Shown here in pieces: positions 6,372 to 61,881 of a stretch of 64,000 nt of DNA. A program made the translations under genes and the position numbers. Origin of the DNA: Escherichia coli (GTDB lineage: Bacteria > Pseudomonadota > Gammaproteobacteria > Enterobacterales > Enterobacteriaceae); NCBI RefSeq assembly GCF_003334385.1, contig NZ_QOWN01000011.1; one strand, written 5' to 3'. The notes beneath the pieces are model-generated. The model was not told the DNA's origin and ran no database searches. It saw only the letters and a list, made by a program, of their open reading frames with translations. Positions within the stretch are counted from its first letter, which is position 1, and every line of letters begins with the position of its first letter.

Positions 6372-6402
6372 TATTCCGTTGATCGGCACATGAACCACAA
6401 CG

Positions 6403-6428
6403 CCGGATGCGATGCTGCGCATCCGGCA
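6403..6428. terminator. REP-like GC-rich hairpin between convergent cnoX and fetB
   Basis: gccggatgcgatgctgcgcatccggc inverted repeat in the 62-bp gap between convergent stop codons. Confidence 0.6.
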
Positions 6429-6433
6429 TCGCA

Positions 6434-7213
6434 TCATTTCTTCTTCAATTGCGTCACCACCAACTGGTGGCGCGAATTATAAAACTTACGATAGGTTAAA
6501 TAGCAGGCAATAATGGTCGACAAGCTGGCGGTTGAGAGCAGCATAAAGGTCACCATAATCTGATATTTAATCGCCTTCACCGGATCAATCCCGGCAAATA
6601 TCAGCCCGGACATCATTCCTGGTAAACTCACTAAGCCAACCGTTTTTGCTGAATCGACCGTCGGAATTAAAGCCGCGCGAATACTGTCGCGAATCAATAT
6701 CGCTGAAGCCTGCTTCGGCGTCGCACCAAGACTCAGTTTCTCCTGAATCTGTTGCTGTTCGCTAATGACCCGTTGCCCTAAATTGTTGTAACACAACCCC
6801 ACCGCTACCATGGCGTTACCGGCAATCATCCCGGCGATAGGGATCACCTGCATCGGGATAAATTCAATCGACCCTGAGAGAATCAGCACCGCCAGGGTAA
6901 TTCCCGCCCCGACCGTAATGGCAATAAACGATGAGATAAAAGCTTTAGCAATATATTTACTGCGTTTTTGCGCGTTCCACGCCGCATTAAAGCAGATAAA
7001 TAACACCATCAATAATGTCAGGCTGGCATCATCCACGCTGAAAATATACTTCAGCACATAGCCGACAATAATCAGCTGAATTATCGCTCGCCCGACGCTC
7101 CAGAGAATATCTTTCTCCAGCGCCAGTTTTTCTTTATGGCTAATTAAGATTGCCACCACCACCAGCATTAATGCCAGTGCTAATGATTCGTTAGTAATAT
7201 TATGCGAGTTCAT
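6434..7213 (-). CDS. fetB: Iron-export ABC transporter permease (UPF0014 family), 259 aa
   Basis: Start taken at MNSHNITNESLALALMLVV within track ORF 6434..7240; hydrophobic throughout; overlaps fetA 3' end by 14 bp. Confidence 0.88.
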   Translation of the reverse strand: MNSHNITNESLALALMLVVVAILISHKEKLALEKDILWSVGRAIIQLIIVGYVLKYIFSVDDASLTLLMVLFICFNAAWNAQKRSKYIAKAFISSFIAITVGAGITLAVLILSGSIEFIPMQVIPIAGMIAGNAMVAVGLCYNNLGQRVISEQQQIQEKLSLGATPKQASAILIRDSIRAALIPTVDSAKTVGLVSLPGMMSGLIFAGIDPVKAIKYQIMVTFMLLSTASLSTIIACYLTYRKFYNSRHQLVVTQLKKK

Positions 7214-22261: not shown

Positions 22262-22353
22262 AAAATATGTAGGCATGATAAGACGCGCCAGCGTCGCATC
22301 AGGCATCGAGAGCCAAATGCCAGATGCGGCGTGAACGCCTTATCTGGCCTACG
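22262..22353. repeat. REP element pair between convergent ybaL and gsk
   Basis: gcctgatgcgacgctggcgcgtcttatcatgcctaca and gccagatgcggcgtgaacgccttatctggcctacg palindromic units. Confidence 0.85.
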
Positions 22354-26754: not shown

Positions 26755-26797
26755 GATGAAAAGAAAAATGCCGGATGACACGAAGGTCATCCGGCAT
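26755..26797 (-). terminator. Rho-independent terminator of htpG
   Basis: Minus-strand hairpin atgccggatgacc-ttcgtg-tcatccggcat followed by a T-rich tract, immediately after the htpG stop. Confidence 0.75.
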
Positions 26798-28756: not shown

Positions 28757-28785
28757 CGAGAGCAGGTGATCCTGCTCTCGTTTGC

Positions 28786-29772: not shown

Positions 29773-31704
29773 TCAAATGGGGCGGATACTTTCTTCATCC
29801 AGCTCCGCATCGAAGAACCGACGCAGGGTCTGAATATTATTATCCGCAATAATGGACTCGCGCGCCTGCGCAAGTTTTTCTTCGTATATCGCCTGACGCC
29901 ACTCCAGCGGCGTACGCACCGCGGGATTATCATCTTCAACGATAGTCAGTTCAACCGTTGAACCTTTTAACATGCTCAACGCTTCAGCCAGTTTTTGCTG
30001 TGCACCGCGGTTGTTCAAATGCCGCTGAGAGGAGCGCAAATGCAGACATACTGCGTTGTCGCTCTCCTCTTTCCAGGCATTTAACGCCACCTGTTCGACC
30101 AGTTTTGGTAGCGAAAGTTGGCTCACCTGTGCCGCCCACGGGTCGCGCTCAATGGCTTCTGCCGCTAGCTTCGCCGCCAGTTCCGGCGTTTTTTCATGTT
30201 CCAGCGCTTTTTTCAGCGCCTTCGGCGTGGCGACCACTTCTTTTTGCTGCATCACCGGAGTGGTCGCCTTCCAGCGATACGCTTCTTTTTTGGCTGGCGC
30301 TTTTTCCAGCGCCGATGGCACCGGACGCGCCTGAACGCGATCGGTGACCGAAGCCAGTCTTTCCAGCGCAGCGTTATTCACCGGCCGCGCGCGGGTAGCG
30401 GCTGCCGGTTCACTCTTTTTTGCTTTGGTTGCTCCCTGCACGCGCTGCAACTGCTGGCGCGCCGCCAGCACCTGGCTGGTGGTTTCCGGGAGCGGTACAG
30501 TCGGTGCCTGCTGCGGCGCTGATTGCGGTTGCGGCGGCACCTGGGTTGGCGTCATTACTGCCGTTGGCGCGACGGGTGCAAAGGACTGTCGTGGCACTTC
30601 TGGCTCAGGCAGCGGCATACGCGGATGGAATGCCAGCGCGCGCAGCAGCGTCATCTCAACGCCCATGCGACGGTCCGGCGCATACGGTAATTCTTTGCGA
30701 CCAATCAACAGCGTCTGATAGTAAAGCTGAATATCCGTCGGCGGTATGGTGCGCGCCAGTTCACGCATCCGCAGCTCGATGGCGGCCATGTCGTTGCCAA
30801 GTGCAGCAGGCGAAAGTTGTACCATCGCAATACGATGCAACAGGCCGAGCATTTCCACCAGCAACGCTTCCCACTCGATACCACGGGCAGCGGCTTCATT
30901 AATCAGCGCCATTACGCGCTCGCCGTTGGCCTCGACCATCGCTTCAACCAGCGACAGCGCCTGATCGTCGTCAAGCGTACCCAGCATCGCACTGACCGCC
31001 TGGGTTGAAACCTGGCCGTCACCGCTGGCAATCGCCTGGTCGGTCAGACTTAAGGCATCTCGCAGGCTGCCTTCAGCGGCGCGTGCCAGCAATTGCAGCG
31101 CCCGCGGCTCGTGAGCGATATGTTCTTCGTTGAGGATGTGCTCAAGCTGATGGCGAATTTGCTCGACATCCAGCGCCTTGAGATGAAATTGCAGACAGCG
31201 TGACAAAATCGTCACCGGCAATTTCTGTGGATCGGTCGTCGCCAGCAGAAACTTAACGTGCTCCGGCGGCTCTTCAAGGGTTTTTAACAGTGCGTTAAAG
31301 CTGTGGCGCGACAGCATATGCACTTCGTCGATCAGATAAACTTTGAAACGACCACGCGCCGGAGCGTACTGGACGTTATCCAGCAGGTCGCGGGTATCTT
31401 CAACTTTGGTGCGCGAGGCGGCGTCGATTTCAATCAGATCGACAAAGCGCCCCTGCTCGATTTCACGACAGTTATCGCACACGCCGCACGGCGTCGCGGT
31501 AATGCCGGTTTCGCAGTTTAGCCCCTTCGCCAGCAGTCGGGCGATAGAGGTTTTTCCGACGCCACGGGTGCCGGAAAAAAGATAAGCATGATGAATACGC
31601 CCTAACGACAAGCCGTTCGCCAGTGCGGTCAGCACATGTTCCTGGCCGACGACGTCAGCAAAGGTTTGTGGGCGCCATTTTCGGGCTAAGACCTGATAAC
31701 TCAT
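29773..31704 (-). CDS. dnaX: DNA polymerase III tau subunit (gamma produced by frameshift), 643 aa
   Basis: AAA+ clamp-loader motifs (GTRGVGKTS P-loop, SRC motif) plus tau-specific C-terminal domains. Confidence 0.96.
   Translation of the reverse strand: MSYQVLARKWRPQTFADVVGQEHVLTALANGLSLGRIHHAYLFSGTRGVGKTSIARLLAKGLNCETGITATPCGVCDNCREIEQGRFVDLIEIDAASRTKVEDTRDLLDNVQYAPARGRFKVYLIDEVHMLSRHSFNALLKTLEEPPEHVKFLLATTDPQKLPVTILSRCLQFHLKALDVEQIRHQLEHILNEEHIAHEPRALQLLARAAEGSLRDALSLTDQAIASGDGQVSTQAVSAMLGTLDDDQALSLVEAMVEANGERVMALINEAAARGIEWEALLVEMLGLLHRIAMVQLSPAALGNDMAAIELRMRELARTIPPTDIQLYYQTLLIGRKELPYAPDRRMGVEMTLLRALAFHPRMPLPEPEVPRQSFAPVAPTAVMTPTQVPPQPQSAPQQAPTVPLPETTSQVLAARQQLQRVQGATKAKKSEPAAATRARPVNNAALERLASVTDRVQARPVPSALEKAPAKKEAYRWKATTPVMQQKEVVATPKALKKALEHEKTPELAAKLAAEAIERDPWAAQVSQLSLPKLVEQVALNAWKEESDNAVCLHLRSSQRHLNNRGAQQKLAEALSMLKGSTVELTIVEDDNPAVRTPLEWRQAIYEEKLAQARESIIADNNIQTLRRFFDAELDEESIRPI
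30410..30421 (-). other. dnaX: dnaX programmed -1 frameshift site (A AAA AAG, then GAG TGA in -1 frame) producing the gamma subunit
   Basis: Plus strand shows CTTTTTT at 30415-30421, the reverse complement of AAAAAAG; on the mRNA the -1 frame reads AAA AAA GAG TGA; a GC-rich stem-loop (CCGGCAGCCGC…GCGGCCGG) follows. Confidence 0.85.
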
Positions 31705-33897: not shown

Positions 33898-36800
33898 TTA
33901 CCCTACCGCTGGCGTCGGGTCATCGCCTTTGTAGTCGCGTTTTACTTCCGTCACCTCATCGCCCTTCTCGTTGTGCAGATGCACTTCAAGCTGGTTAAAG
34001 GCAATGTTGATGTCGTTTTCACGGCACAGCTGATCGATAGTACGGTTCAGCTCATCGACAGTACGACTACGGTCACGCAGTTCACGCACATACAGACGCA
34101 GCTCATGATCCAACGTGCTGGCACCAAATGCCGTAAAGAAGACTTCCGGCATTGGTTCGTGCATCACCCTTGGGTGCTCAGTCGCCGCCTTCAGTAACAC
34201 TTTACGCACTTTTTCCAGATCGGAGCCATAGGCCACGCCGAGACGGATCACCAGACGCGTAGTAGTGTCAGTCAACGACCAGTTGATCAGACGCTCGGTA
34301 ACAAACGCTTTGTTCGGGATGATCACTTCTTTGCGATCGAAATCGGTAATCGTTGTCGCACGAATACGGATCTTACTTACCGTCCCCGAGAAGCTACCAA
34401 TGGTTACCGTATCGCCAATACGCACCGGACGTTCGAATAGAATGATCAAACCGGAGACGAAGTTACCGAAAATTTCTTGTAAACCAAAACCAAGACCTAC
34501 GGATAATGCTGCGGCCAGCCACTGGAGTTTATCCCAAGAGACGCCCAGCGATCCGAACACCGTCATCGCACCAACAGCAATAATGATGTAGTTAAGGATG
34601 GTAGTAATGGCATACGACGCGCCCTGGCGCATATTCAGTCGCGAGAGCACCAGCACTTCCAGTAAACCAGGCAGGTTGCGAATCAACGCCCAGGCCACCA
34701 TTGAGGCGATAATCGCAAACAACAGACTGCCCATGGTGACGTTTTTCACCACCGCAGCGCCAGCTTCAGTGCCGTTGTAATGCCAGAGCGTGATGCTGTC
34801 GAGATAGCTGAACACGGTGATCAAATCGGACCAAATTGCCCAGAACATGACACCGAACAGCGCAAACATCAGCAACATGGTAATACGCAGCGTCTGCTGG
34901 TTAACTTGCTCCAGTGCAATGGTGGGTTCTTCCGGCGGTTCAGCACCTTCTGCGCCCTCTTTCACCAGATTCTGCCGACGCGCCAGCGCACGACGCCAGG
35001 CGATACGCCGCGCCGCTACGCTTAAGCCACGCAGTACCGTCTGGTACAGCAGGTTCCAGATGATCACCAGATAAACGGTTTCAATCCAGCGTCCTGCCAG
35101 ACGCAGCGTAGTGTAGAAGTAGCCTGTAGCAGTCAGCACCATCAGCGCAATCGGGATTATCGACAGCACGGTAATGGTGACCAGTCGCATGGTGTGCGAC
35201 TCTTTATCACGCCAGCTTTCGCGGCACATCGGCCATACCAGGAAGGCAATCAGCAGCAGGTTGAAGAAAATCATCGCTTGCCCCAGCACATCATCCATCA
35301 GATGCAGCGGGGAAAGTTCTGCCACCACAGACCAGAAATGGATAGGCAGCAATGCGAGACTGATGCGGACAATTTGCCGACGCCAGTGGCTGGTCTGCTG
35401 TTCCGGCATGCCGAAGTGACGTACGGCAACGCCGTTTTTCTCCAGTACCTTCCAGCACAGGCCAAACACCAGCCAGAATATCGCCAGTTTTTTGCTGAAC
35501 GACCATAGCAGTTCGCTGATGTTGAGCTGCATGGTCAACAGAATCAGGCCAACCGCGAGAATAATCAGGCACACCGGCAGCGCACGGATCAGGTCGATAA
35601 GGATCGCTTTTGGTGTGTTGAGCTGGCTGTCGTTACGCAGGGAACCCACAGCGGAAGCCAGTTTTTGTTGATACGCTTTCAGCCAGCCCAGACGCCAGTG
35701 GATCAGCCCGGCAATCAACAGCAGCGGCAAACCAGCGAGGAAAGCGATAAAAACGGCGGGCCAGGCTTTTTGCCAGTTCACCGTGATTTTCATCGACTTA
35801 AATTCATCTTTCAGGCTTTGCGGGAACGCTTTGATCCAGTCCCAGTCCATTGGACGGTTACTGTTCACCCAAAAGATTTGCTGAGTCAGGATGGATTTCA
35901 GGTTTTTCGACACACTCATTAACTGCTGCTGGTTGATTTGCAGGTTAATGGCCATCATCAGCTGGTTACCCAACTGTTTGTTGAGTTGATCCAGCAATTC
36001 GCGACGCATATCAACCACTTGCAATAACGCATCGTGAACTTCGCTGTTGACTTCGTTGGTGTGACCTTCTTCCAGTTTGTTGACGAACGCATCGCTCTGG
36101 AAGAGTGCATCACGCTGCTGGTTAACTTCAAACTGTTCGAGACGCAAATCCGCGATGCGGTTGGTCATGTTTTCCAGTTCATCCGCCGAGGGCAGCGTTT
36201 GTTGTTGCTGGTAAAGGATACGAGACAACAGCAGGCTGCCCTTCAGGACGGCAATCTGCTCTTTAATATTGCGTTCCGATTGCAGCGCCCGCTCCAGCCA
36301 GTTTTTGACTTTAATGTTTTGCTGCATCAACTGATTACCGTTTTCAGTCGCGGTAATCAGACGCTGACTTAACTGCTGGTTAATTTCCAGTTCCTGCTTC
36401 ACCAGCGGATTAGCCTGAATACGCGCGGCTTCATCCGGGGAGACGGCTTCCTGCGCCGTTTTTTCGGTTAAAGTCAGGCGCTTGCTGTTTACCGCTTCTT
36501 GCAACAGTTGTAACTGGTGCTCCAGACGAGCGCTGTTCGCCGTCACGTAATCACGTTGCTTTTGCAAGGTATCCTGCAAGACGGTGTTCCCTTCCAGGCT
36601 TTTACGCTGCTGGTCAATCTCCGCATTCAGCAACGCCTGCTGGGCCTGCATTAACACTTTCTGGCTGGGACGTAAGGCTGTCTCGCCGACATCAGTCCCA
36701 TCCAGACGACTGCGAATTTGTTGCAGCTGCTGCGAAGCGTTATACATCGCATTTTGCACGCGTTCGGGCTGCGTCTGTAACGAAACCAGCTGGCTGTTAT

Positions 36801-37387: not shown

Positions 37388-38035
37388 TTATTCGTTAGTG
37401 GCAGGATTACGAAGCGTGGGGCACAGGAGATACATCTCCAGTAAGATGGCAACGTAATCGCGGGCTTCTTTTTTAAGATCAAAAGATTGCGGGGCAAAGA
37501 GCCAGTTTTCCATCAGGCCGGAAATATAGCCGCGCATAATAATTGCTGCGCGACGCGTCATTAAATCCGCAGGCAACATTTTCGCTTCAATACAATGTTT
37601 TAACGTTTGTTCTATACGGTCATAACTTTCCAGACAGAGATTACGTTGTGCCTGTTGCACAACAGCCATTTCTCCGACAAATTCGCATTTGTGGAATATA
37701 ATCTCCATCAATAATCGACGCCGTTCTTCTGTCACCGTGGATTCAAGAACATGAATTAATATCTCTCTTAATACTGAGAGTGGATCGCCAGGGAATTTTG
37801 CCTGATACTCAAGCTCTAGTTCACCAATATTGGATTCTGACAGTTCCCAGATCTCACTGAACAAATCCGACTTGTCTTTAAAATGCCAGTAGATTGCACC
37901 GCGCGTAACGCCAGCTGCTTTTGCAATCTCGCCCAGCGAGGTGGATGATACCCCCTGCTGTGAGAAAAGACGTAGAGCCACATCGAGGATGTGTTGGCGC
38001 GTTTCTTGCGCTTCTTGTTTGGTTTTTCGTGCCAT
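37388..38035 (-). CDS. acrR: TetR-family repressor of acrAB, 215 aa
   Basis: TetR HTH (…[22 protein letters not shown]…); divergent from acrA. Confidence 0.95.
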
Positions 38036-38063
38036 ATGTTCGTGAATTTACAGGCGTTAGATT

Positions 38064-38087
38064 TACATACATTTGTGAATGTATGTA
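38064..38087. promoter_or_regulatory. 24-bp palindromic operator in the acrR-acrA divergent promoter region (AcrR site)
   Basis: TACATACATTTGTGAATGTATGTA: near-perfect 10-bp inverted arms around a 4-bp centre, between the two divergent start codons. Confidence 0.8.
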
Positions 38088-38176
38088 CCATAGCACGACG
38101 ATAATATAAACGCAGCAATGGGTTTATTAACTTTTGACCATTGACCAATTTGAAATCGGACACTCGAGGTTTACAT

Positions 38177-39370
38177 ATGAACAAAAACAGAGGGTTTACG
38201 CCTCTGGCGGTCGTTCTGATGCTCTCAGGCAGCTTAGCCCTAACAGGATGTGACGACAAACAGGCCCAACAAGGTGGCCAGCAGATGCCCGCCGTTGGCG
38301 TAGTAACAGTCAAAACTGAACCTCTGCAGATCACAACCGAGCTTCCGGGTCGCACCAGTGCCTACCGGATCGCAGAAGTTCGTCCTCAAGTTAGCGGGAT
38401 TATCCTGAAGCGTAATTTCAAAGAAGGTAGCGACATCGAAGCAGGTGTCTCTCTCTATCAGATTGATCCTGCGACCTATCAGGCGACATACGACAGTGCG
38501 AAAGGTGATCTGGCGAAAGCCCAGGCTGCAGCCAATATCGCGCAATTGACGGTGAATCGTTATCAGAAACTGCTCGGTACTCAGTACATCAGTAAGCAAG
38601 AGTACGATCAGGCTCTGGCTGATGCGCAACAGGCGAATGCTGCGGTAACTGCGGCGAAAGCTGCCGTTGAAACTGCGCGGATCAATCTGGCTTACACCAA
38701 AGTCACCTCTCCGATTAGCGGTCGCATTGGTAAGTCGAACGTGACGGAAGGCGCATTGGTACAGAACGGTCAGGCGACTGCGCTGGCAACCGTGCAGCAA
38801 CTTGATCCGATCTACGTTGATGTGACCCAGTCCAGCAACGACTTCCTGCGCCTGAAACAGGAACTGGCGAATGGCACGCTGAAACAAGAGAACGGCAAAG
38901 CCAAAGTGTCACTGATCACCAGTGACGGCATTAAGTTCCCGCAGGACGGTACGCTGGAATTCTCTGACGTTACCGTTGATCAGACCACTGGGTCTATCAC
39001 CCTACGCGCTATCTTCCCGAACCCGGATCACACTCTGCTGCCGGGTATGTTCGTGCGCGCACGTCTGGAAGAAGGGCTTAATCCAAACGCTATTTTAGTC
39101 CCGCAACAGGGCGTAACCCGTACGCCGCGTGGCGATGCCACCGTACTGGTAGTTGGCGCGGATGACAAAGTGGAAACCCGTCCGATCGTTGCAAGCCAGG
39201 CTATTGGCGATAAGTGGCTGGTGACAGAAGGTCTGAAAGCAGGCGATCGCGTAGTAATAAGTGGGCTGCAGAAAGTGCGTCCTGGTGTCCAGGTAAAAGC
39301 ACAAGAAGTTACCGCTGATAATAACCAGCAAGCCGCAAGCGGTGCTCAGCCTGAACAGTCCAAGTCTTAA
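38177..39370 (+). CDS. acrA: RND multidrug efflux periplasmic adaptor lipoprotein, 397 aa
   Basis: Start at MNKNRGFTPLAVVLMLSGSLALTGC (lipobox) inside track ORF 38141..39370. Confidence 0.96.
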   Translation: MNKNRGFTPLAVVLMLSGSLALTGCDDKQAQQGGQQMPAVGVVTVKTEPLQITTELPGRTSAYRIAEVRPQVSGIILKRNFKEGSDIEAGVSLYQIDPATYQATYDSAKGDLAKAQAAANIAQLTVNRYQKLLGTQYISKQEYDQALADAQQANAAVTAAKAAVETARINLAYTKVTSPISGRIGKSNVTEGALVQNGQATALATVQQLDPIYVDVTQSSNDFLRLKQELANGTLKQENGKAKVSLITSDGIKFPQDGTLEFSDVTVDQTTGSITLRAIFPNPDHTLLPGMFVRARLEEGLNPNAILVPQQGVTRTPRGDATVLVVGADDKVETRPIVASQAIGDKWLVTEGLKAGDRVVISGLQKVRPGVQVKAQEVTADNNQQAASGAQPEQSKS

Positions 39371-39389: not shown

Positions 39390-42542
<3,153 letters not shown>

Positions 42543-47234: not shown

Positions 47235-47348
47235 GGGTGGGGGCCCTGCCAGCTACATCCCGGCACACGCGTCATCTGCCTTGGCTGCTTCCTTCCGGAC
47301 CTGACCTGGTAAACAGAGTAGCGTTGCGGGAGAACCAACAGAGCCCCC
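47235..47348 (-). ncRNA. ffs: 4.5S RNA (signal recognition particle RNA), 114 nt
   Basis: Minus strand reads GGGGGCTCTGTTGGTTCTCCCGCAACGCTACTCTGTTTACCAGGTCAGGTCCGGAAGGAAGCAGCCAAGGCAGATGACGCGTGTGCCGGGATGTAGCTGGCAGGGCCCCCACCC, the 4.5S RNA sequence including the conserved SRP domain IV GGAA tetraloop region. Confidence 0.93.
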
Positions 47349-47424: not shown

Positions 47425-47814
47425 ATGCTGGTTTCTTGCGCAATGCGACTTCACTCGGGCGTTTTTCCAGATTATGCTGAAAAATTACCTCAGGAAGAAA
47501 AGATGGAAAAAGAAGATTCATTTCCCCAACGCGTCTGGCAAATCGTCGCCGCTATTCCCGAAGGCTATGTCACCACTTACGGTGATGTGGCGAAACTGGC
47601 GGGATCGCCCCGCGCCGCGCGCCAGGTGGGCGGTGTGTTAAAGCGTCTCCCTGAAGGCAGCACCTTACCCTGGCACCGGGTGGTTAATCGCCACGGCACA
47701 ATTTCGCTAACCGGACCGGATTTACAGCGTCAGCGACAGGCATTACTGGCAGAAGGTGTGATGGTATCGGGAAGCGGGCAAATCGACTTGCAGCGTTATC
47801 GCTGGAACTACTAA
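47425..47814 (+). CDS. atl: Alkyltransferase-like protein (DNA alkylation damage sensor), 129 aa
   Basis: Start at MLVSCAMRLHSG… inside track ORF 47404..47814; MGMT-like DNA-binding fold lacking the catalytic cysteine context. Confidence 0.85.
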   Translation: MLVSCAMRLHSGVFPDYAEKLPQEEKMEKEDSFPQRVWQIVAAIPEGYVTTYGDVAKLAGSPRAARQVGGVLKRLPEGSTLPWHRVVNRHGTISLTGPDLQRQRQALLAEGVMVSGSGQIDLQRYRWNY

Positions 47815-47836
47815 CCCTCTCCGGGCGGAGAGGGTT
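47813..47836. terminator. Bidirectional hairpin between convergent atl and ybaY
   Basis: aaccctctcc-gggc-ggagagggtt perfect 10-bp stem overlapping the atl stop codon. Confidence 0.65.
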
Positions 47837-47844
47837 AACGTCGC

Positions 47845-59394: not shown

Positions 59395-59435
59395 AGCGCA
59401 ATAACCTTACGTTGTTGTTATAAGTACAGAGGTCA

Positions 59436-61881
<2,446 letters not shown>

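What the first reader, a model, noticed from the sequence alone, without database searches (positions are those of the whole stretch)
38036..38176. Perfectly placed 24-bp palindrome in the acrR-acrA divergent control region
TACATACATTTGTGAATGTATGTA (38064-38087) lies between the divergent start codons and has the length and symmetry expected for a TetR-family dimer-of-dimers operator. The region should also carry a mar/sox/rob box for acrAB activation, which I did not pin down.
Basis: partly seen in the sequence, partly recalled or inferred. Interest (0 to 1): 0.2.

Follow-up and report, generated by a model that had tools for sequence, protein, structure and literature searches.

The report
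Known AcrR operator of acrAB

Summary
TACATACATTTGTGAATGTATGTA, a perfect 10+4+10 inverted repeat, sits at 38064-38087 in the 141-bp gap between acrR (ATG complement at 38035) and acrA (ATG 38177). The window is E. coli. AcrR, AcrA and AcrB all pass their NCBIfam equivalog cut-offs.

[quoted passage not shown] 2007, quoted in PMC9769551 and PMC10597343). The paralogous repressor EnvR/AcrS uses the same palindrome (PMC9780535). The site overlaps a conserved sigma-70-like promoter: TTTACA at 38062, an 18-bp spacer, then TACCAT ending at 38091. In 79 Enterobacterales loci the arms are 98-100% conserved and only the centre varies.

No marbox lies in 38090-38176. The only exact consensus match in the 64 kb is ATGGCACGAAAAACCAAACA at 38016-38035 on the minus strand. 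It overlaps acrR codons 1-7 and is identical to the oligonucleotide used for MarA gel shifts and to the Salmonella RamA site. Synonymous change in codons 2-6 is almost absent (3 of 385).

Binding as a dimer of dimers is suggested in the literature but has no structural proof. Verdict: already known, low interest.

The parts
38064..38087 (.). 24-bp perfect inverted repeat TACATACATT-TGTG-AATGTATGTA. It is the AcrR operator and is shared with EnvR/AcrS. The core conserved across genera is TACATACAT-N6-ATGTATGTA.
   Evidence: sequence, unique in the window. (verbatim published AcrR site). (mutating the palindrome abolishes EnvR binding in Salmonella). (conservation in 79 loci).
38016..38035 (-). 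mar/sox/rob box (marbox) ATGGCACGAAAAACCAAACA, in backward orientation relative to acrA, overlapping acrR codons 1-7.
   Evidence: only exact consensus match in 64 kb; 0.05 expected. (the MarA EMSA oligonucleotide of PMC11633057 equals window 38011-38041). (the same 20-mer at -161..-142 is the RamA site in Salmonella). (0.99 conserved). (synonymous change 3 of 385 in codons 2-6).
38062..38067 (+). Candidate -35 hexamer TTTACA of the acrAB promoter. It overlaps the left arm of the operator.
   Evidence: consensus scan, 9 of 12 matches, 18-bp spacer. (conserved). The transcription start was not verified here.
38086..38091 (+). Candidate -10 hexamer TACCAT of the acrAB promoter. It overlaps the last 2 bp of the right arm and implies a transcription start near 38098.
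   Evidence: (38088-38099 is 0.93 conserved). The start site is inferred from spacing only.
38101..38130 (-). Candidate acrR promoter: TTAATA at 38130-38125, then TATATT or TATTAT ending at 38103 or 38101. Low confidence. An alternative is the extended -10 TGCTATGGT at 38095-38087.
   Evidence: (scan) and direct reading. The -35 is not conserved in other genera. Either choice puts the operator at or just downstream of the acrR start, which fits autorepression.
37388..38035 (-). acrR, the TetR-family repressor, 215 aa.
   Evidence: NF007949 equivalog, 419 bits against a cut-off of 271. (full-length match to PDB 2qop, E=1.6e-141). (RefSeq annotation).
38177..39370 (+). acrA, the periplasmic adaptor of the AcrAB-TolC pump, 397 aa.
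   Evidence: NF011604, 885 bits against a cut-off of 765..
39393..42542 (+). acrB, the RND permease, 1049 aa.
   Evidence: NF011706, 2422 bits against a cut-off of 2150.
38141..38176 (+). Highly conserved part of the acrA leader. It holds a GGA motif (38158-38160) and the Shine-Dalgarno GAGG (38166-38169).
   Evidence: 0.95 conserved. (CsrA binds GGA sites in the acrAB leader in Salmonella, PMC5727465).

Best explanation
The palindrome is the operator through which the local TetR-family repressor AcrR, and its paralogue EnvR/AcrS, repress the acrAB multidrug-efflux operon of E. coli. It spans roughly -34 to -11 of the acrAB promoter, from the -35 TTTACA to the -10 TACCAT. Bound repressor therefore excludes RNA polymerase. 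Because the site also lies at or just downstream of the divergent acrR start, it autoregulates acrR. Ligand binding to AcrR releases it from DNA. Activation by MarA, SoxS or Rob (RamA in other genera) works through a separate 20-bp marbox. That box is centred about 72 bp upstream of the inferred start, in backward (class I-like) orientation, and is embedded in acrR codons 1-7. What is shown here: the sequence, its uniqueness, its identity to published sites, its conservation and the gene identities. What comes from the literature: protein binding by gel shift. What is inferred: the exact transcription starts, promoter occlusion as the mechanism, and two dimers per site.
For: The repeat is perfect and unique. 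The flanking genes are AcrR, AcrA and AcrB by NCBIfam equivalogs, and AcrR matches PDB 2qop over its full length. The 24-mer is quoted verbatim as the known AcrR site of the acrAB promoter, and AcrR shifts that promoter in EMSA (PMC9769551 and PMC10597343). Mutating 10 palindrome positions abolishes EnvR binding in Salmonella (PMC9780535). A sigma-70-like promoter overlaps the repeat (3 promoter-like hits in the region against 0.5 expected). In 79 loci from Escherichia to Serratia, Erwinia and Pantoea (AcrR 60-98% identical), the arms are invariant or nearly so, the centre varies, and the distance to the acrR ATG is 28 bp in 70 of 79 loci and 27-29 bp in all 79. The 51-nt core is 100% identical in 5283 of 5401 matching E. 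coli genomes.
Against: I could not read the primary footprint and affinity paper (Su et al. 2007) or the AcrR structure papers, so the site definition is taken second-hand. I found no experimentally mapped acrA or acrR transcription start in the searchable library, and the Salmonella paper gives only a 'predicted TSS'. No AcrR-DNA complex is in the PDB. In Salmonella, deleting acrR barely changes MICs, so AcrR is a modulator rather than a strong switch.
Confidence: 0.95

Rival explanations
1. The same operator is bound by a single AcrR dimer in the TetR/tetO style, one helix-turn-helix per 10-bp arm, rather than by two dimers on opposite faces in the QacR style.
For: No structure of AcrR on DNA exists. 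The dimer-of-dimers model is described only as 'suggested'. The invariant core is a simple 9+6+9 palindrome.
Against: 24 bp is much longer than the typical single-dimer TetR-family site of about 13-15 bp, and it resembles the 28-bp QacR site with its multi-bp non-palindromic centre (PMC6018408). Each arm is itself a tandem TACA-TACA, giving four repeated elements (read directly). Multiple shifted EMSA bands were interpreted as one versus two dimers.
Confidence: 0.3
2. The physiologically dominant repressor at this palindrome is EnvR/AcrS, not AcrR.
For: EnvR is reported to bind the acrAB promoter with higher affinity than AcrR and to repress more strongly when overexpressed. Palindrome mutations abolish its binding (PMC9780535).
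Against: envR expression is negligible under laboratory conditions. The palindrome and its 27-29 bp distance from the acrR start are conserved together with acrR in all 79 loci. The two readings do not exclude each other.
Confidence: 0.1
3. The repeat functions as an RNA hairpin in the acrR leader or in a read-through transcript, not as a protein-binding DNA site.
For: Either strand would fold into a 10-bp hairpin of -9.1 or -9.2 kcal/mol, z about -3.1.
Against: There is no T-run after the stem. If the acrA start is near 38098 the repeat is not in the acrA mRNA. Ten of 79 loci carry an uncompensated arm change (A to T at 38083, giving AATGTTTGTA) with the other arm unchanged, and there is no covariation anywhere in the arms. 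Direct protein binding is documented.
Confidence: 0.02
4. It is a chance palindrome in A+T-rich intergenic DNA with no function.
For: About 0.76 perfect 10-nt-arm repeats per 64 kb are expected by chance.
Against: The expectation for this 141-bp region is about 0.002. The arms are invariant across genera whose AcrR proteins are only 60% identical, while flanking spacer DNA drifts. It is identical to an experimentally used binding site.
Confidence: 0.01

Closest known systems
[quoted passage not shown]
   Same: The sequence is identical, 24 of 24 bases. The position is the same (intergenic positions 29-52, as in the Salmonella numbering of PMC9780535), and so are the flanking genes.
   Different: Nothing. 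This is that site.
QacR-IR1 operator of Staphylococcus aureus (TetR family, PDB 1JT0)
   Same: Both are long palindromes (24 bp here, 28 bp there) with a multi-bp non-palindromic centre that overlap the promoter of a multidrug-efflux gene. For QacR, binding by two dimers is shown by structure.
   Different: The sequence and organism differ, and the regulated pump is an RND type rather than MFS. Two-dimer binding is only suggested for AcrR and has no structure.
TetR-tetO
   Same: Both involve a TetR-family repressor encoded divergently from the efflux gene it controls, a palindromic operator in the shared control region, and release by ligand.
   Different: A typical single-dimer TetR-family operator has about 6 bp on each side of a central base pair (PMC6018408). 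Here there is one 24-bp site, and activation by AraC-family proteins is added through a separate marbox.
Class I mar/sox/rob promoters (marbox upstream of the -35 in backward orientation; Martin et al. 1999, from my own knowledge of that paper, not read here)
   Same: There is a 20-bp exact consensus match upstream of the -35 on the strand opposite to transcription.
   Different: The box lies inside the coding sequence of the divergent repressor gene (acrR codons 1-7). Its distance from the start (centre about -72.5) rests on an inferred transcription start.

Membership tests
AcrR/TetR-family operator | Inverted repeat of operator length in the control region next to a divergently transcribed TetR-family repressor gene | tested here: met
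   perfect 10+4+10 repeat, 28 bp from the acrR ATG and 89 bp from the acrA ATG.
AcrR/TetR-family operator | The neighbouring regulator is AcrR itself | tested here: met
   (NF007949 equivalog, 419 bits against a cut-off of 271). (full-length match to PDB 2qop, E=1.6e-141).
AcrR/TetR-family operator | Sequence identity to the experimentally defined AcrR site | tested here: met
   the 24-mer is printed verbatim as the known AcrR-binding site in three papers.
AcrR/TetR-family operator | Direct binding by the repressor, and loss of binding or repression when the repeat is mutated | not testable with these tools
   Literature only. AcrR shifts the acrAB promoter (PMC9769551). Palindrome mutations abolish EnvR binding in Salmonella (PMC9780535). 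The primary AcrR paper was not readable.
AcrR/TetR-family operator | Overlap with the core promoter of the repressed operon | tested here: inconclusive
   One search finds TTTACA-18-TACCAT spanning the repeat, and one search shows it is conserved. No mapped transcription start was found.
AcrR/TetR-family operator | Conservation with the regulator across species | tested here: met
   arms 0.98-1.00 conserved in 77 distinct sequences, at a fixed distance from acrR.
QacR-type dimer-of-dimers operator | Four repressor subunits (two dimers) per operator | not testable with these tools
   Suggested in the literature. No AcrR-DNA structure is in the PDB.
QacR-type dimer-of-dimers operator | Extended palindrome (about 24-28 bp) with a several-bp non-palindromic centre | tested here: met
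   (10+4+10). Across genera the pattern is 9+6+9. Compare the QacR description.
mar/sox/rob box | Match to AYNGCACNNWNNRYYAAAYN | tested here: met
   one exact match in 64 kb, at 38016-38035 on the minus strand (0.05 expected); none with fewer than 4 mismatches inside 38036-38176.
   the best candidate there has 4 of 14 mismatches, and 606 sites that good occur in the window.
mar/sox/rob box | Bound by MarA, SoxS, Rob or RamA | not testable with these tools
   Literature. The MarA EMSA oligonucleotide for the 'acrAB marbox' equals window 38011-38041. RamA deletion-EMSA maps the same 20-mer in Salmonella.
mar/sox/rob box | Selective constraint beyond the overlapping coding sequence | tested here: met
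   synonymous change is 3 of 385 in acrR codons 2-6. For most codons 9-45 it is 30-90% of the instances that keep the amino acid. The invariant codons include the rare Arg codon CGA.

The most novel reading that the evidence does not exclude
Apart from the known operator and marbox, the acrA leader holds two nearly invariant blocks, GCAGCAATGGG (38112-38122) and CCATTGA (38137-38143). They can pair as a 6-bp stem (CAATGG/CCATTG) around a loop that varies in sequence and length across Enterobacterales. This could be an undescribed cis-regulatory RNA stem or a protein-binding inverted repeat, distinct from the CsrA sites already reported.
Probability: 0.12. Interest if true: 0.3.

Novelty: already known. 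Interest (0 to 1): 0.05.

Why it matters
AcrAB-TolC is the main multidrug efflux pump of E. coli and its relatives, and this control region decides how much of it is made. The operator and the marbox are both long established, so nothing new follows from finding them again. The useful corrections for anyone annotating this locus are two. First, the activator box sits inside the acrR coding sequence, which explains the frozen synonymous sites in codons 2-6. Second, the palindrome serves two repressors, AcrR and EnvR.

Tried and rejected
1. I tried to read the primary papers (Su 2007 PMC2104644, Routh 2009 PMC2729549, Li 2007 PMC2254304). None is held, so footprint limits, Kd and stoichiometry could not be checked at source.

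2. A literature search for an experimentally mapped acrAB or acrR transcription start returned nothing. The promoter assignment therefore rests on the consensus scan plus conservation.

3. I scanned for a marbox in 38090-38176 and found only background-level matches. The GCAC at 38093-38096 looks like a marbox start, but the A-rich element is 3 bp out of register, so I rejected it.

4. The Rfam gathering-threshold scan found no family in the acr region.

5. Folding of the inferred acrA leader (38098-38195) is not more stable than shuffles, z = -0.49.

6. The covariation test of the leader (33 sequences) gave a covariation term of -0.05. The stems are invariant, so this says nothing for or against an RNA structure.

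7. The RNA-hairpin reading of the palindrome was rejected because of uncompensated arm changes in 10 loci.

8. No AcrR-DNA complex exists in the PDB to settle the binding mode.

Full report
**Observation**

The sequence at 38064-38087 is TACATACATTTGTGAATGTATGTA. The repeat finder reports two 10-nt arms, 100% complementary, separated by 4 nt (I2). The 24-mer occurs once in the 64-kb window even with three mismatches allowed, and none is expected by chance.

The acrR-like ORF is 37388-38035 on the minus strand. The acrA ATG is at 38177. The palindrome lies 28 bp from the acrR ATG and 89 bp from the acrA ATG.

A perfect 10-nt-arm repeat with a short loop is not astronomically rare. A first-order Markov model gives 0.76 per 64 kb, and the window holds nine such loci, the other eight more G+C-rich. 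For one particular 141-bp region the expectation is about 0.002.

**Identity of the locus**

NCBIfam equivalog models identify the flanking proteins, all above their curated cut-offs:
- AcrR: 419 bits against a cut-off of 271.
- AcrA: 885 bits against 765.
- AcrB: 2422 bits against 2150.
- MscK: on the far side of acrR.

AcrR matches PDB 2qop (E. coli AcrR) over its full length, E = 1.6e-141. The 2-kb acrR-acrA segment is present in 5424 of 5426 complete E. coli genomes. The 201-bp control region is at least 99% identical in 5422 of them. The 51-nt core around the palindrome is 100% identical in 5283 of 5401 matching genomes.

**What the palindrome is**

A full-text search for the exact 24-mer returns three papers. 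[quoted passage not shown] They describe it as two 10-bp inverted repeats with a 4-bp spacer. The same papers use the acrAB promoter as the positive control for AcrR gel shifts.

The paralogue EnvR/AcrS binds the same palindrome. In Salmonella, ten substitutions in it (positions 29-52 of the 141-bp region, the same offset as here) abolish EnvR binding (PMC9780535). I could not open the primary 2007 papers, so the definition of the site is second-hand.

**How it most likely works**

A consensus scan finds a plus-strand sigma-70-like promoter. It consists of TTTACA (38062-38067), an 18-bp spacer and TACCAT (38086-38091). The region has three promoter-like hits against 0.5 expected.

The operator fills the space from the -35 to the -10. 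Bound repressor would therefore exclude RNA polymerase. This is an inference from position. With the -10 ending at 38091, the start would be near 38098. I found no mapped start in the library, and the Salmonella paper shows only a predicted one.

On the minus strand there are two candidates for the acrR promoter:
- TTAATA followed by TATATT or TATTAT (38130-38101). Its -35 is not conserved in other genera.
- An extended -10, TGCTATGGT (38095-38087), read directly.

Either choice places the operator at or just after the acrR start. That fits the reported autorepression (review PMC7355843).

**Conservation**

A scan of one genome per species with AcrR returned 80 loci, from Escherichia to Serratia, Erwinia, Pantoea and Rouxiella, with AcrR 60-98% identical. 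The main findings are:
- In 79 usable loci the gap between acrR and acrA is 139-144 bp in 77.
- The palindrome sits 28 bp from the acrR ATG in 70 of 79 loci and 27-29 bp in all 79.
- Differences from the E. coli sequence lie almost entirely in the central 4-6 bp (TGTG, TATG, GCGA, TGCG and others).
- The invariant core is therefore TACATACAT-N6-ATGTATGTA.

Column conservation over 77 distinct sequences:

| Segment | Conservation |
|---|---|
| Left arm | 1.00 |
| Right arm | 0.98 |
| Centre of the palindrome | 0.83 |
| 38036-38063 | 0.79 |
| 38126-38140 | 0.74 |

Ten loci (Kosakonia, Trabulsiella, Phytobacter and others) carry A to T at 38083 in one arm, with no compensating change in the other. 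Together with the lack of any covariation, this argues against an RNA-hairpin function. That holds even though either strand could fold into a hairpin of about -9 kcal/mol.

**Binding mode**

It fits three things:
- The 24-bp length resembles the 28-bp QacR site, which is shown by structure to be bound by two dimers, and is longer than the typical single-dimer site with about 6 bp on each side of a central base pair.
- Each arm has an internal TACA-TACA duplication.
- EMSA shows multiple shifted bands.

No AcrR-DNA structure is in the PDB. I give this part about 0.6-0.7.

**The marbox**

The consensus AYNGCACNNWNNRYYAAAYN has exactly one perfect match in the whole window (0.05 expected). It is ATGGCACGAAAAACCAAACA at 38016-38035 on the minus strand. 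These are the first 20 nucleotides of acrR (ATG GCA CGA AAA ACC AAA CA).

Within 38036-38176 the best candidates have 4 of 14 mismatches. There are 606 such sites in the window, so this is background.

Two published experiments use this same sequence:
- The 31-nt oligonucleotide used as the "acrAB marbox" in MarA gel shifts (PMC11633057, Table S1) equals window 38011-38041.
- The identical 20-mer at -161 to -142 of Salmonella acrA was mapped as the RamA site by nested-deletion EMSA (PMC2527123). The offset here is the same.

The box is 0.99 conserved. The acrR codons it covers are frozen at synonymous sites. Codons 2-6 show 3 synonymous differences in 385 codon instances. For most later codons the figure is 30-90% of the instances that keep the amino acid. 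The invariant codons include the rare Arg codon CGA.

Relative to the inferred start, the box spans about -82 to -63, in backward orientation. As I recall from Martin et al. 1999, this is the class I arrangement. I have not verified that here.

**Comparison with what is known, and novelty**

This is the textbook acrR-acrAB control region, so the finding is already known. The operator belongs to the AcrR/TetR-family operator class by every feature that could be tested here. Binding itself rests on published experiments.

**Other things seen**

The acrA leader is unusually conserved: 38112-38125 at 0.97 and 38141-38176 at 0.95. The second block holds a GGA motif and the Shine-Dalgarno sequence, matching the CsrA-bound leader described in Salmonella.

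RNAalifold pairs CAATGG (38115-38120) with CCATTG (38137-38142) around a variable loop. Both sides are invariant, so there is no covariation evidence.

Several E. coli genomes carry IS elements in acrR. One genome has an IS481-family element inserted at about 38057, between the marbox and the -35.

Noticed in passing
window 38016-38035 (minus strand): The acrAB marbox is embedded in acrR codons 1-7. Synonymous variation in codons 2-6 is almost absent across 77 distinct Enterobacterales sequences (3 of 385), including the rare Arg codon CGA. This shows a DNA-level constraint on top of coding.
   Followed up: yes
window 38112-38143: Two nearly invariant blocks, GCAGCAATGGG and CCATTGA, flank a stretch that varies in sequence and length. 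They can form a 6-bp stem (CAATGG/CCATTG) in the inferred acrA leader. Both sides are invariant, so there is no covariation and the function is unknown.
   Followed up: partly
window 38141-38176: This part of the acrA leader is near-invariant (0.95). It holds ATCGGACAC (GGA at 38158-38160) and the Shine-Dalgarno GAGG (38166-38169), consistent with the CsrA-binding leader reported for Salmonella acrAB (PMC5727465).
   Followed up: partly
window 38086-38095: Overlapping -10-like hexamers face each other: TACCAT on the plus strand (38086-38091) and TATGGT on the minus strand (38092-38087). The minus-strand one is preceded by TG (TGCTATGGT, extended -10-like). This may be the real acrR promoter, in which case the acrR start would lie inside the operator.
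   Followed up: no
L081 (NZ_CP148461.1), insertion at about window 38057; also hits H1-H8: One chicken E. coli isolate has an IS481-family element inserted between the marbox and the -35 of acrAB. Several other genomes carry IS1, IS1A or IS421 insertions inside acrR. Their effect on acrAB expression was not examined.
   Followed up: partly
window 6402-6435, 17199-17222, 26768-26797, 47812-47837, 20327-20353, 28757-28780, 36331-36360, 59428-59452: These are the other perfect 10-nt-arm inverted repeats in the window. Several have GCCGGATG-type arms, which look like REP elements or terminator hairpins. The one at 36331-36360 lies inside mscK.
   Followed up: no
window 30376-30440 (-), 47244-47340 (-), 16509-16592 (-), 15033-15211 and 22272-22349: Rfam hits elsewhere in the window: the DnaX frameshift element, the small SRP (4.5S) RNA, sroB, and three naRNA4 copies.
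   Followed up: no
L001 (labelled E. coli strain SCPM-O-B-8794): This species-representative genome labelled E. coli has the operator centre TATG instead of TGTG, plus several other intergenic differences. Its AcrR is 98% identical.
   Followed up: no
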